Assembly (NCBI RefSeq): GCF_964204865.1
Contig: NC_135251.1
Coordinates: 15,376,001-15,440,000, forward strand
Length of the DNA: 64,000 nt
Origin: Styela clava
Lineage: Eukaryota
Direction: 5' to 3'
This document shows, in pieces, positions 18,701-21,700 of the stretch. Made by a program: the position numbers. How positions within the stretch are numbered: the stretch's first letter is position 1; each line of letters opens with the position of its first letter.

Positions 18701-21700
18701 ACTTGGAAAAAACTTTTGATTTGACACACTGGCATTCTATGAATCAAATATAAGGAACAGCCAATCACTACCTAAGGAATCGGCTATATCTTACCAATTC
18801 TTCTTCCGTTCTATATGGCTTGCCAGTGATAATTTTTTTCTTACGAGAATATTGAGATGAAATAGAGAAAGTATTGCAAATAAATGTGAAATGGCATGAC
18901 TTGTTACAAAAAAGACTAATTATTCTATGTGATATACAAAGCATTTAGCAGTTATATCATGCTATATATAGTGATTTTAATCTAAATTTACTAAAATATG
19001 ACAGACAGACATTATTTTATAAACAATGAACAGAAAATGGAAATAGAATAAATGACAAAATGAAACATCTTCGAATCAATGCAGTTTTATTCTTCAGCAC
19101 AAGGAATATTTCATTACCAAATAATAGCAGTTGTTGAATCGACTGATTTCAGGATTTCAAGGTTTATTTGCTTATAATAATGTGTGTCACTTGATAATAA
19201 AAACTCAACCAAAACACCATATTTCTATGATATTGTAACAGGACTACTTAAAAGAAACATACTAACATAGCCTAGAAAGAAAAACTTGATACCACAATTC
19301 AGCAATTTTAAAAAGGTCTAAATTGGAAACAAATATCAAAATAAATGGGAATACTATTTTCATTTTTGTAAAAATATGATTGAACAGAACAATTCAGCAA
19401 TTAATGTAAACATAGAATTATAACAACTTTACATTACTCTGCTTTCCAGTTGTTCATAATGATTATTTTTCAAAGCCTTATTCAGTGTCAGCCAAATAAT
19501 ATGTTATATTATGTTTAACTCATATTCAACATTACTAGTACCTGGGTATTTGGTTGTAATGTCATATCTACTGTATCTGACAATAGAATACAATAATTAG
19601 CCAACATATCGAAATATTATGCGTATGCGGTATCATATTCTAATATATCATAGTCTCATCTGAATACCGAAATAGCCATTTGATAGATCACAAAACAGAC
19701 AACTGGACAAGAGAGTATTCCATTTGTCCATGGCATTTTTGAGCAGTTTGTCAGTAAATTACCATTAAATCTCAGTCTCGGTGGGAACCACCATCATTTG
19801 ATGGTCTATAAAGGCAGAAAGGTAAGATAATCATCATACTCTCAGTATAAACATTCCAGACAAGCTGCTTGGAAAATATTTACAGGTTTCCACCAGTTTG
19901 CTGAGTGAAAACATCTATTGTATCATCGTCCTCCATTTCAAGCTTTTCTGGGGTGTCCTCGAGCGAAATAGCCGTCCCGTCAAAACGAAACCGCATGGCT
20001 TCTATTTGAACTCCTTGCCGATCACAATATGCAGTAATCAGTTTTTTCATTGGCGTGCGACGTTTAATCTTGAATTGAATTACCGAGCCATCTTGTCCTG
20101 ACACCTTTAGGTTTATATGTTGATCGCCGTCAGGCTTAACATCCTTAGGTTTTGCATCAGCCATCACAAGCCTGAACAATTCACACAACTTCTGTATTTC
20201 GTTAACAGTAAAGTCAAGCTGAATTGAGCCGCAGCGCAACAACAACCATCACAAAGCGTGGACGACGGCGCGGAATTAGTGCGCCATCTTCCGGGGCAGA
20301 ATATTGATTACAAAAACTTGACTTGAAGTGTACCAATGGATAGTTTTGTTGGTATGTTGTTGTTCTCGTTAGCCTTTTCTTAGGTTACCGGCAAATGCTG
20401 GTTTGACGACTATCAATCAATCAATCAATACAACAGAACCACAAAAGGAGAAAAAATTGCAGGGGTCCCGGAAACATACACGATATAAAATTAGGCAATA
20501 ACTTTTAAATACAAAACAATGAAAATTTCAGCAAACAGTGCGGGTCGAACTCGAAACGATGCATTGGTCGACTTCACGTTCAGTAAAATGCAAAACAATG
20601 AGAATTTCAGCGGACTGTGCGAGTCGAAACAACCCACGAGTTCACTTCAGCAAAATGCAAACGAGCAAAACAAAGTAAAATTGAGTGCTTTTTGTGCTTA
20701 GACCCAATTATCCCATCCAGTGGTTTTTGGAAGAGTATACCATATTAAACTTGCACAAATGCCCAATAGTTTCACTTTATAAATACTGGGTTCCAATATT
20801 AAGATAACAACGAAATAAAGTAACTTCCTCTAATTTTAACAGAGAGGAGAGTGTACATAAGCCATGTCAAAGAACGGGAAATGGAGATTCTCGATCACAT
20901 ATACAGGAGCATATAAACTTGTTCAATTCATCATATCTATCAGTGCAATGATAATGACGTTCATAATGATGATAAAAATTTGCACAGTTTTGAACAGGAT
21001 TCCAGAATATGGCGGAAAAACAATTATTGCCGAATGAAGTGTGACCGAATATGTAAATTCTCATTTTATTATAAGACAAAAGCAAACTATACGTGCATTA
21101 TTAACAGTGGCAGTTGCTGATAAATGCATATACACGGGATATATAATTAGAAGATTTACAGTATTATATACTAAATAAATATTAAAAATAAAAATGAGAA
21201 ATTATTCGAACCAGCGACACGAACATATGATGGCATAGATTGTGGTTATACTATCACATGTGGAGTGATATTTTGCTAACAGTTTGTTTGCTGTTATCTT
21301 AGAGAAAGGCTTTTAACTCCGAATGTTGTTTTCTTGAATTGCATTTTACGACTTGTTTGTAAATTTATCTTATGCCGGCAGACGTCACTGATAAAGGTGG
21401 AAGTAGGGGTAAGCCTAGCAGACAATACAACTAAATTATGAACGCGTTATTGTAGATGTAGAGAGAGAGAGTGGGAAAGAAAGTTCATTTAATTTGTCAA
21501 AGCAAAAACACACGATTTATGCGGTGTCTTCAAAATGTCGTGTTCCACTTGTCTTACGTGTCCGACTCGTCCCACGTGTTCTACATTCAATCGTTAAATT
21601 TATCAAACCAAATAACTAGATGTCCATGTGATTCATTTGTTCGGTAAATTTTGTAATAATGATATTATTACTGTATACATAGTAAAACAATTAAGCAATG

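What the first reader, a model, noticed from the sequence alone, without database searches (positions are those of the whole stretch)
18900..20296. SUMO-MTG2 candidate eukaryotic operon (polycistron resolved by trans-splicing)
Seen: SUMO and MTG2 are co-oriented on the minus strand. The SUMO 3'UTR has AATAAA at 19168-19163 and 19091-19086, followed by a U-rich tract (about 19065-19020), then an acceptor-like TATTTTAG ending at 18991. The MTG2 ATG is at 18944, only about 140 bp past the last poly(A) signal. There is no CpG-rich promoter-like patch or obvious non-coding first exon in that gap, and the only promoter-like signal (YY1/ETS) is upstream of SUMO. Known: tunicates and nematodes resolve operons by spliced-leader trans-splicing at such unpaired acceptors. 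Inference: one promoter drives both a sumoylation modifier and a mitoribosome assembly GTPase. An alternative is a SUMO retrocopy that landed in the MTG2 5' region and captured its promoter.
Basis: partly seen in the sequence, partly recalled or inferred. Interest (0 to 1): 0.72.

Follow-up and report, generated by a model that had tools for sequence, protein, structure and literature searches.

The report
Sea-squirt SUMO–MTG2 candidate operon
Two real housekeeping genes, SUMO and the mitochondrial ribosome GTPase MTG2, sit head to tail in a sea-squirt genome in the layout typical of that group's many operons, which is plausible but unproven and ordinary for these animals.

Summary
The window is from a Styela clava chromosome (an ascidian). 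RefSeq protein XP_039259148.2 maps to it as seven minus-strand exons and matches the window where the two record versions differ. SUMO is a single 94-codon ORF (20164-19880). MTG2 starts at ATG 18944. The two AATAAA sites, the T-rich tract and the AG ending at 18991 are all present. The individual signals are no more than chance. AATAAA occurs 2.07 times per kb per strand, so about 1.9 are expected in the 935-nt spacer and 2 are seen. Acceptor-like motifs are also common. What carries weight is the arrangement: same strand, a single-exon upstream gene, and no canonical poly(A) signal until 142-224 nt before the next ATG. In Ciona, about 20% of genes lie in operons, and 60% of operons have a single-exon 5' gene. 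A TATAAA at 19021 could instead drive a separate start near 18990. No transcript data could be reached. Verdict: a likely operon (about 0.55), a new member of a known kind, low interest.

The parts
20282..20294 (-). Composite ETS/YY1-like motif CCGGAAGATGGCG, in the CpG-richer patch about 120 nt upstream of the SUMO ATG. Candidate promoter element for the whole unit.
   Evidence: Read and located. CCGGAAG occurs 3 times on both strands of the window. This AAGATGGCG copy is not in the dispersed repeat that holds most other copies. The function is inferred. The YY1 and ETS names are recalled.
19880..20164 (-). SUMO gene, a single coding exon of 94 codons plus stop. It ends ...QQTGG-NL.
   Evidence: ORF. 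Pfam Rad60-SLD 5.9e-22 and ubiquitin 9.2e-10. Aligns without internal gaps to 8 SUMO2/3-type proteins and keeps all 47 invariant columns.
18991..19879 (-). AT-rich, CpG-poor spacer. It is the putative SUMO 3' UTR, ending near 19070 if AATAAA 19091 is used, or at G18991 if processing is Ciona-type.
   Evidence: No ORF above 47 aa. No copy elsewhere in the window. No Rfam match at E<=1. CpG 0-5 per 200 nt. The extent of the UTR is inferred, not measured.
19163..19168 (-). First canonical AATAAA after the SUMO stop, 712 nt downstream of it.
19086..19091 (-). Second AATAAA, followed 20-45 nt later by a GU/U-rich stretch (GATGTTTCATTTTGTC).
   Evidence: Reading the GU-rich stretch as a downstream element is inference from general poly(A)-site knowledge.
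19020..19065 (-). T-rich tract upstream of the candidate acceptor.
   Evidence: The 100 nt from 19091 to 18992 are 49% T (99th percentile), 60% G+T (92.5th) and 76% A+T (93rd).
19016..19021 (-). TATAAA, 32 nt upstream of the TA at 18990/18989. It is either a weak variant poly(A) hexamer just before the AG or a TATA box for a separate MTG2 start.
   Evidence: The Ciona TATA position of -32 to -29 comes from PMC4691747 passages. TATAAA occurs 1.29 times per kb per strand, so it may be chance.
18991..18992 (-). Candidate trans-splice acceptor AG (CATATTTTAG|T). The leader would join at 18990, giving a 46-nt 5' UTR.
   Evidence: It has the same TTTTAG form as 3 of the 6 cis acceptors of MTG2. Its use is not shown.
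18982..18983 (-). Second candidate acceptor AG (AAATTTAG|A). The leader would join at 18981.
18952..18960 (-). Two-codon upstream ORF, ATG ATA TAA, in the presumed MTG2 5' UTR.
18795..18944 (-). MTG2 coding exon 1, 50 codons, a presequence-like N-terminus. ATG at 18944 follows an in-frame TAA. The donor is GTAAGA.
   Evidence: In an alignment of 4 MTG2 proteins, residues S29, K42, E47 and L50 are invariant.
18162..18309 (-). MTG2 exon 2 (start of the Obg fold).
   Evidence: Pfam GTP1_OBG 1.2e-15. Boundaries.
17450..17565 (-). MTG2 exon 3.
   Evidence: Pfam GTP1_OBG 3.7e-06..
17269..17381 (-). MTG2 exon 4.
   Evidence: Pfam GTP1_OBG 3.3e-06..
15619..15866 (-). MTG2 exon 5 (G1-G2 region of the GTPase domain).
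   Evidence: Pfam MMR_HSR1 4.8e-11. 100% identical to XP_039259148 over 83 aa. The best named hits are MTG2 of tunicates and other animals.
14175..14322 (-). MTG2 exon 6.
   Evidence: Pfam MMR_HSR1 1.5e-05..
13601..13868 (-). MTG2 exon 7 with stop codon TGA at 13603-13601.
   Evidence: 100% over 89 aa.. The seven coding pieces sum to 1,188 nt, or 396 codons, which is the length of the RefSeq protein.

Best explanation
SUMO and MTG2 of Styela clava most likely form a two-gene ascidian operon. In this reading, RNA polymerase II starts near the ETS/YY1-like element at about 20290 and transcribes through the intronless SUMO gene and its long AT-rich 3' region into MTG2. The precursor is then resolved in one of two ways. 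It can be cleaved and polyadenylated to give SUMO mRNA, after AATAAA 19091 or, as in Ciona, at the G of the acceptor AG at 18991 or 18982. Alternatively, a capped spliced leader is trans-spliced onto 18990 or 18981 to give MTG2 mRNA with a 5' UTR of about 37-46 nt. Shown here: the organism, both genes, their strand and spacing, the single-exon state of SUMO, and the start codon of MTG2. Inferred: the shared promoter, the polycistronic precursor, the trans-splicing and the exact processing sites. The pairing probably reflects shared housekeeping expression, not a functional link between sumoylation and mitoribosome assembly.
For: - Organism: exon 1 hits one protein, S. clava 'mitochondrial ribosome-associated GTPase 2-like'. 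XP_039259148.2 carries the window's residue at both positions where the two record versions differ, and it lies on a 31,344,463-bp contig, as does the SUMO protein.
- Lineage: SL-resolved operons are documented in Ciona and Oikopleura and were proposed as ancestral to tunicates (PMC1488885 passages).
- Base rates in Ciona: 1,310 operons hold 2,909 genes, about one fifth of all genes. The 5'-most gene is single-exon in 790 (60%) of operons, against 15% of non-operon genes (PMC2760879 section 10).
- Here SUMO is one uninterrupted coding exon, and MTG2 lies on the same strand 935 nt after the SUMO stop.
- No AATAAA or ATTAAA lies between the SUMO stop and 19168. If canonical signals are used, the SUMO transcript reaches to within about 120-200 nt of the MTG2 ATG.
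- With cleavage about 15-25 nt after AATAAA 19091, the gap to the AG at 18991 is about 70-80 nt. That is under the 100-bp operational limit and the 84-bp cut-off inferred for Ciona.
- No AATAAA lies within 40 nt upstream of either AG, as in 16 of 18 Ciona operons.
- The candidate acceptor has the same form as 3 of the 6 cis acceptors of MTG2.
- The upstream 100 nt are U-rich and AU/GU-rich, a property reported for Ciona trans-spliced 5' regions (abstract of PMC11155486).
- The acceptor-to-ATG distance of 37-46 nt is similar to the -58 to -64 of Ciona troponin I.
- The spacer holds no other gene, repeat or RNA family.
Against: - No transcript, cap or leader evidence could be reached. Trans-splicing has not been described for Styela in the library searched.
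- Every short signal is at chance frequency.
- If SUMO ends after AATAAA 19091, about 70-80 nt of intercistronic DNA remain. Only 44 of 1,172 predicted Ciona operons have any gap. Non-operon same-strand pairs closer than 100 nt also exist, at under 1.1% of pairs.
- TATAAA at 19021 lies exactly at -32 from a TA dinucleotide at 18990/18989. That is the preferred TATA position and a frequent start dinucleotide in Ciona, so a conventional capped start there fits equally well.
- Monocistronic trans-spliced genes have outrons that peak near 100 nt with a mean of 438 nt. A promoter could therefore lie inside what is here called the SUMO 3' UTR.
- Stronger acceptor-like sites lie further upstream, at 19807 and 19273.
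- The donors of MTG2's own introns are degenerate (GTAGAA, GTATTT, GTTTGT, GTATAC), so an upstream cis donor cannot be excluded from sequence.
- No fused SUMO-Obg gene model turned up among the 120 listed MTG2 relatives, so there is no sign that the adjacency is conserved.
Confidence: 0.55

Rival explanations
1. Two independent genes packed tightly. MTG2 has its own promoter inside the 935-nt spacer. Either the TATAAA at 19021 drives a capped start near 18990 with no trans-splicing, or a start lies 100-500 nt upstream of the AG, within or just after the SUMO 3' UTR, and its short outron is replaced by the leader as in ordinary monocistronic trans-spliced genes.
For: - TATAAA 19021-19016 lies 32 nt before the TA at 18990/18989. 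Ciona TATA boxes peak at -32 to -29, TA is a frequent start dinucleotide, and 15.6% of non-ribosomal-protein promoters carry a TATA box.
- Ciona promoters have no CpG islands, so the CpG-poor gap does not exclude a promoter.
- Outrons peak near 100 nt with a mean of 438 nt. The troponin I outron is 459 nt and 68% A+U.
- About half of Ciona genes are trans-spliced without being in operons.
Against: - TATAAA occurs 1.29 times per kb per strand in this AT-rich window, so the match may be chance.
- A promoter further upstream would overlap the SUMO transcript if SUMO uses either AATAAA.
- Same-strand non-operon pairs closer than 100 nt made up under 1.1% of pairs in Ciona.
- A single-exon upstream neighbour is four times commoner at operon heads than among non-operon genes.
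Confidence: 0.33
2. A shared promoter with cis-splicing. MTG2 mRNA starts at or near the SUMO promoter, or at a non-coding exon just after the SUMO stop, and is cis-spliced to the AG at 18991 or 18982. SUMO would then lie within, or overlap, the first intron or exon of MTG2.
For: - Donor-like sites lie upstream on the same strand: TCG|GTAATT at 20083, CCT|GTAAAT at 19883 (across the SUMO stop) and ATG|GTAATT at 19762.
- MTG2's own donors are weakly conserved, so weak sites may function.
Against: - None of the donor-like sites is strong.
- Splicing from 19883 to either AG runs into a stop within 11 codons (my reading), so no fusion protein would result.
- The RefSeq protein begins at ATG 18944 with no upstream coding exon.
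- In Ciona, weak paired donors favour trans-splicing at the first acceptor (abstract of PMC11155486).
Confidence: 0.07
3. Origin by retroposition. This concerns history and is compatible with the operon reading. SUMO is a retrogene that landed between the MTG2 promoter and the MTG2 5' end and now uses that promoter.
For: - SUMO has a single coding exon.
- It is more diverged than other tunicate SUMOs. It is 67-72% identical to them, whereas the Ciona intestinalis and Clavelina proteins fall in one 90% cluster.
- The unexplained excess of single-exon 5' genes in Ciona operons would fit such a route.
Against: - There is no A-run at either candidate 3' end.
- There are no convincing flanking direct repeats. 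The best flanking pair is a 10-mer, with one copy well inside the 3' UTR, which is chance level.
- No second, intron-bearing SUMO of S. clava was seen among the 120 listed relatives or the 31 cluster members examined. The other 371 hits were not shown.
- All 47 invariant columns and the GG site are kept, so this looks like the working SUMO gene.
- Intron loss would give the same picture.
Confidence: 0.15

Closest known systems
Ciona intestinalis SL-resolved operons (Satou et al. 2006, PMC1488885; Satou et al. 2008, PMC2760879), for example the DTL-URM1-CHERP operon
   Same: An ascidian host, two same-strand genes and mostly dicistronic units. A single-exon protein-coding gene sits at the 5' end. 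The genes are housekeeping genes with no evident functional link. There is no AATAAA within 40 nt of the acceptor, and a single promoter-like region lies upstream of the first gene.
   Different: In Ciona, the upstream mRNA's poly(A) is added at the G of the acceptor AG, with no intercistronic DNA (1,128 of 1,172 predicted operons). Here two canonical AATAAA signals lie 95 and 172 nt before the AG, so a gap of about 70-80 nt is possible. Nothing here is backed by cDNA. S. clava has roughly twice the genome size of Ciona.
Caenorhabditis elegans SL2-type operons
   Same: A poly(A) signal, then a U-rich spacer of roughly 100 nt, then an unpaired acceptor.
   Different: Tunicates use one leader for both monocistronic and operon genes and have no SL2-type specialisation. 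The lineage is different, and the resemblance in spacing rests on predicted sites only.
Oikopleura dioica operons
   Same: A tunicate with a single leader and short intercistronic regions. Upstream cistrons lack AATAAA near the junction.
   Different: Oikopleura spacers are 23-30 nt, with a median of 31-33 bp in SLOPPR, in a very compact genome. Here the genome is large and the possible spacer is longer.
Monocistronic trans-spliced ascidian genes such as Ciona troponin I (PMC3074122)
   Same: The acceptor lies a few tens of nt before the ATG (-58 to -64 there, -37 to -46 here), preceded by AU-rich RNA.
   Different: Troponin I has its own TATA promoter and a 459-nt outron with no gene inside it. 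Here the upstream RNA would contain a complete SUMO gene.

Membership tests
Ascidian (Ciona-type) SL-resolved operon | The host organism carries out spliced-leader trans-splicing. | not testable with these tools
   The window is S. clava. Trans-splicing is documented for Ciona and Oikopleura and was proposed as ancestral to tunicates. No paper on Styela trans-splicing was found. The S. clava genome paper has 0 occurrences of 'operon', 'trans-splic' or 'spliced leader'.
Ascidian (Ciona-type) SL-resolved operon | Neighbouring genes on the same strand with no gene between them. | tested here: met
   SUMO at 20164-19880 and MTG2 at 18944-13601 are both on the minus strand. The spacer has no ORF above 47 aa, no repeat and no RNA family.
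Ascidian (Ciona-type) SL-resolved operon | Less than 100 bp between the upstream mRNA 3' end and the downstream mRNA 5' end (the operational definition of Satou 2006 and 2008). | tested here: inconclusive
   Only predicted sites are available. From AATAAA 19091-19086 to AG 18992-18991 is 95 nt hexamer start to AG, or about 70-80 nt after the expected cleavage point. The transcript ends are unknown.
Ascidian (Ciona-type) SL-resolved operon | No intercistronic DNA: poly(A) is added at the G of the trans-splice acceptor AG. | not testable with these tools
   This needs 3' and 5' cDNA ends. One sequence feature fits: no AATAAA within 40 nt upstream of either AG, as in 16 of 18 Ciona operons.
Ascidian (Ciona-type) SL-resolved operon | The downstream gene's mRNA carries the spliced leader. 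| not testable with these tools
   No transcript collection for this species was available. A suitable AG with a pyrimidine-rich run is present, but such sites occur at chance frequency.
Ascidian (Ciona-type) SL-resolved operon | A polycistronic precursor made from one promoter. | not testable with these tools
   An ETS/YY1-like element lies upstream of SUMO only. A TATAAA lies in the gap. No expression data were available.
Ascidian (Ciona-type) SL-resolved operon | A single-exon 5'-most gene (typical of the family, not defining). | tested here: met
   SUMO is one uninterrupted ORF that aligns full-length to its orthologues. In Ciona the figure is 60% of operons against 15% of non-operon genes.
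Nematode SL2-type operon | A specialised second leader (SL2) recruited through an intercistronic region of about 100 nt. | not testable with these tools
   The papers state that tunicates use a single leader for both gene classes. On that basis this is not filed here. Only the spacing resembles the type.
Processed retrogene | Intronless copy, poly(A) remnant, target-site duplications and an intron-bearing parent gene. | tested here: not met
   The copy is intronless. There is no A-run at 19070 or 18990 and no convincing flanking repeat. No second S. clava SUMO was found among the 120 listed hits or the 31 cluster members. An old retrogene that replaced its parent cannot be excluded.
SUMO (SUMO2/3-type ubiquitin-like modifier) | Rad60-SLD/ubiquitin fold with a C-terminal GG maturation site. 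| tested here: met
   Pfam PF11976 at 5.9e-22. QQTGG followed by NL. All 47 columns invariant in a 9-protein alignment are kept.
MTG2 / ObgH1 (mitochondrial Obg-type GTPase) | An N-terminal Obg fold plus an Obg-type G domain, with animal MTG2 proteins as the closest relatives. | tested here: met
   GTP1_OBG on exons 2-4 and MMR_HSR1 on exons 5-6. The best named hits are MTG2 of tunicates and other animals. It is 45-55% identical to three orthologues. The mitochondrial location is inferred from the name and the presequence-like exon 1.

The most novel reading that the evidence does not exclude
Styela clava resolves this pair differently from Ciona. A canonical AAUAAA site with a GU-rich downstream element would be followed by a real U-rich intercistronic spacer of about 75 nt before the trans-splice acceptor. 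That would be a nematode-like arrangement in a chordate. The operon would have arisen when an intronless SUMO retrogene landed in the outron of an already trans-spliced MTG2 and took over its ETS/YY1-type promoter. If this route were general, it would explain why 60% of ascidian operons begin with a single-exon gene, which Satou et al. 2008 left unexplained. A search for ascidian, operons, single-exon, retroposition and outron found no paper making that link.
Probability: 0.1. Interest if true: 0.5.

Novelty: new member of a known kind. Interest (0 to 1): 0.25.

Why it matters
If confirmed, this would be one more ascidian operon, in a species and suborder (Stolidobranchia) for which my searches found no operon or trans-splicing study. 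Its main use is as a small, well-defined test locus with three open questions:

- Does Styela share the gapless Ciona junction, or does it keep a spacer?
- Is the single-exon 5' gene a retrogene?
- Does one promoter serve both genes?

It does not point to a functional link between sumoylation and mitoribosome assembly. Ciona operon genes were reported as neither tightly co-ordinated nor obviously related in function.

Tried and rejected
- Fused SUMO-Obg gene models, sought as a proxy for conserved adjacency. The exon 5 search with 'longer' lengths gave 631 hits at E<=0.001 among 744 candidates. 120 were listed, and 0 of those 120 carry the SUMO domain PF11976. This is uninformative, not negative.
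- A second S. clava SUMO. None was named among the 120 listed of 491 hits, nor among the 31 listed members of 10 clusters, of which only 5 carry a name.
- AAGATGGCG as a general promoter mark. There are 5 exact copies, and 21 with up to 1 mismatch against 7.9 +/- 2.8 in shuffles. Of the 6 sites I inspected, 4 lie in one dispersed repeat family. I dropped the idea that its absence before MTG2 means anything.
- Target-site duplications and a poly(A) remnant around SUMO. None was convincing.
- Repeats or transposons in the spacer. None was found within the window.
- RNA families. There were 0 matches at gathering score for the whole window and 0 at E<=1 for 18500-21000. There were 0 tRNAs.
- Spacer RNA structure. 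It is not more stable than shuffles: z +1.46, with 186 of 200 shuffles folding at least as well.
- The bacterial-type promoter and terminator scan. It is irrelevant for this organism and at the shuffle level, 10 against 8.4.
- Matsumoto et al. 2010 (PMC2860165), on the functions of trans-spliced genes, is not held.
- Supplementary tables of the Ciona operon papers, which may list a SUMO or MTG2 operon, were not opened.
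Full report
**What the window is.** The 64-kb window has 30-37.5% G+C and no N. The 50-codon ORF that starts at 18944 finds one protein in the large protein set, 'mitochondrial ribosome-associated GTPase 2-like' of Styela clava, 396 aa and 98% identical. Its cluster also holds XP_039259148.2, which lies on a 31,344,463-bp contig. 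That version carries the window's residue at the two positions where version .1 differs (S33, S111), and it maps to the window as seven minus-strand pieces. The SUMO protein of the window lies on a contig of the same length. The window is therefore a piece of an S. clava chromosome. S. clava is an ascidian tunicate, not human, so the operators' rule on human contigs did not apply.

**How the searches were done.** I left out any search or fold of a joined model. Only the named RefSeq protein was used whole, to map exons locally and to compare N-termini.

- SUMO is one ORF (ATG 20164, stop 19882-19880) of 94 aa with a Rad60-SLD/ubiquitin fold (5.9e-22). It aligns without internal gaps to eight SUMO2/3-type proteins, keeps all 47 invariant columns and ends QQTGG-NL.
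- MTG2 has seven coding exons: 18944-18795, 18309-18162, 17565-17450, 17381-17269, 15866-15619, 14322-14175 and 13868-13604. I read the boundaries one at a time. The exons sum to 1,188 nt, or 396 codons. Exons 2-4 carry GTP1_OBG and exons 5-6 carry MMR_HSR1.
- The ATG at 18944 directly follows an in-frame TAA. In an alignment with MTG2 of Ciona savignyi, Clavelina and a sea urchin, four exon-1 residues are invariant. The full-length Clavelina and sea urchin N-termini have about the same length before the conserved Obg start; the C. savignyi entry is short at its N-terminus. The start codon is sound.
- AATAAA lies at 19168-19163 and 19091-19086. No other AATAAA occurs between 20400 and 18700, and no canonical signal of either kind lies between the SUMO stop and 19168.
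- The 100 nt before the AG at 18992-18991 are 49% T, the 99th percentile.
- The gap is CpG-poor, while the SUMO 5' region and CDS hold 11-13 CpG per 200 nt against a window mean of 5.8.

**Is it more than chance?** At the level of motifs, it is not.

- AATAAA occurs 2.07 times per kb per strand in this AT-rich window. About 1.9 are expected in the 935-nt spacer, and two are found.
- YYYYNYAG occurs 1.63 times per kb per strand and TTTTAG 0.80.
- The AAGATGGCG core of the 'YY1' site looked enriched: 5 exact copies, and 21 with up to one mismatch against 7.9 +/- 2.8 in shuffles. However, four of the six sites I inspected belong to one dispersed repeat. The copy before SUMO, fused to CCGGAAG, is unique.

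What is not trivial is the gene arrangement. Two intact housekeeping genes lie on one strand. The upstream gene has no intron. No canonical poly(A) signal occurs until 142-224 nt before the next start codon. Nothing else lies in between: no ORF above 47 aa, no repeat within the window, no RNA family and no stable structure.

**What the ascidian literature says.**

- For Ciona, I read section 10 of Satou et al. 2008 (PMC2760879) and passages plus section 14 of Satou et al. 2006 (PMC1488885).
  - Operons were defined as same-strand pairs less than 100 bp apart.
  - There are 1,310 operons holding 2,909 genes, about one fifth of all genes.
  - The 5'-most gene is single-exon in 790 operons (60%), against 15% of non-operon genes.
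  - In all 19 junctions mapped by cDNA, the two cistrons abut, and poly(A) is added at the G of the acceptor AG.
  - 16 of 18 lack AATAAA within 40 nt.
  - About half of all genes are trans-spliced.
- Passages of the SLOPPR paper (PMC7986045) give 1,128 of 1,172 predicted operons with a gap of at most 1 bp, only 44 with a spacer, and an inferred cut-off of 84 bp.
- Passages of Yokomori et al. 2016 (PMC4691747) state four things. Ciona lacks CpG islands. TATA boxes sit at -32 to -29. CA and TA are the usual start dinucleotides. Outrons of monocistronic trans-spliced genes peak near 100 nt, with a mean of 438 nt.
- The abstract of Yokomori et al. 2024 (PMC11155486) reports GU- and AU-rich 5' regions in trans-spliced genes.
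- The troponin I paper (PMC3074122, passages) gives an acceptor at -58 to -64 and a 459-nt outron.
- I found no paper on trans-splicing or operons in Styela. The S. clava genome paper (PMC7540406) has no occurrence of 'operon', 'trans-splic' or 'spliced leader'.

**Weighing the readings.** The operon reading fits the lineage, the strand, the single-exon head gene, the long signal-free 3' region, the form of the acceptor (TTTTAG, as in 3 of MTG2's 6 cis acceptors) and the short distance to the ATG.

Using Ciona figures as rough priors, a close same-strand pair headed by a single-exon gene is more likely operonic than not. That weighting is my inference, not a computation on Styela data.

Several things count against it or leave it open.

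- If SUMO ends after AATAAA 19091, a spacer of about 70-80 nt remains, which is rare in Ciona.
- If the junction is Ciona-type, SUMO mRNA should instead end at G18991 or G18982.
- The TATAAA at -32 from a TA at 18990/18989 gives a fully conventional alternative.
- A promoter inside the 3' region with a short outron is also possible.
- The CpG argument is void in ascidians.
- MTG2's own donors are degenerate, so an upstream cis donor cannot be excluded.

I put the operon at about 0.55, independent promoters at about 0.33 and a cis-spliced shared first exon at about 0.07. The remainder is unassigned.

**Origin.** The retrocopy idea concerns history and is compatible with either mode of expression.

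- SUMO is intronless and more diverged (67-72% identity) than the SUMOs of other tunicates. Ciona intestinalis and Clavelina share one 90% cluster.
- There is no A-run, no target-site duplication and no second S. clava SUMO.
- The gene keeps every conserved position, so it looks like the working SUMO gene.

**What stayed unchecked.**

- No eukaryotic genome or transcript collection was open, so synteny in other ascidians and all RNA evidence are missing.
- The search for fused SUMO-Obg gene models found none among 120 listed relatives, which says little.
- Supplementary operon tables of the Ciona papers were not opened.

**Verdict.** This is a real gene pair in a layout typical of ascidian operons. 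It is probably an operon, but that is not shown. It would be a new member of a known kind and is of low general interest. It is useful mainly as a compact test locus for how stolidobranch ascidians resolve operons.

Noticed in passing
window 6230-6330 (-), 22550-22650 (+), 22730-22830 (-), 33170-33270 (+): A dispersed repeat family. Each copy carries ...GTATGCRMACC-AAGATGG(C/T)G-...GGTTAGGGTT... The copies at 22597 and 22778 form an inverted pair. This family accounts for most of the apparent AAGATGGCG enrichment in the window.
   Followed up: partly
window 20864-21037 (+) and 31670-32224 (+): Paralogous small membrane-protein-like ORFs, 74% DNA identity over 170 nt, with no Pfam match. The copy at 20864 starts about 570 bp from the SUMO promoter motif on the opposite strand, so that region may be a bidirectional promoter. 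The 58-aa ORF may be a first exon or a truncated copy.
   Followed up: partly
window 20507-20661: Two diverged tandem copies (74% over 88 nt) of an approximately 80-nt unit, just upstream of the SUMO promoter region. Tandem Repeats Finder did not report them.
   Followed up: no
window 5131-5526 (+): An ORF matching the C-terminal end of the OATP organic-anion transporter family (Pfam PF03137, 1.1e-11). It is probably the last exon of a plus-strand transporter gene.
   Followed up: no
window 8404-11411 (+): A run of long plus-strand ORFs, rich in charged, coiled-coil-like sequence, with no Pfam match. It looks like a gene convergent with MTG2, whose stop is at 13601.
   Followed up: no
window 20077-20094 and 20273-20290: An 18-nt stretch inside the SUMO CDS (AAGATGGCTCGGTAATTC on the minus strand) is 83% identical to the promoter motif region (AAGATGGCGCACTAATTC). 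This is probably chance.
   Followed up: no
window 23401-23600, 26726-26925, 53401-53600, 61826-62025: The CpG-densest 200-nt patches of the window, with 17-24 CpG against a mean of 5.8. The patch at 23403 also carries a unique AAGATGGCG. They may mark other gene starts.
   Followed up: no
protein level, SUMO at window 20164-19883: S. clava SUMO is only 67-72% identical to other tunicate SUMOs. The Ciona intestinalis and Clavelina proteins, by contrast, fall in one 90% cluster. This points to faster change in this lineage, with substitutions such as H36R, L39M, M43I and Q44T.
   Followed up: partly
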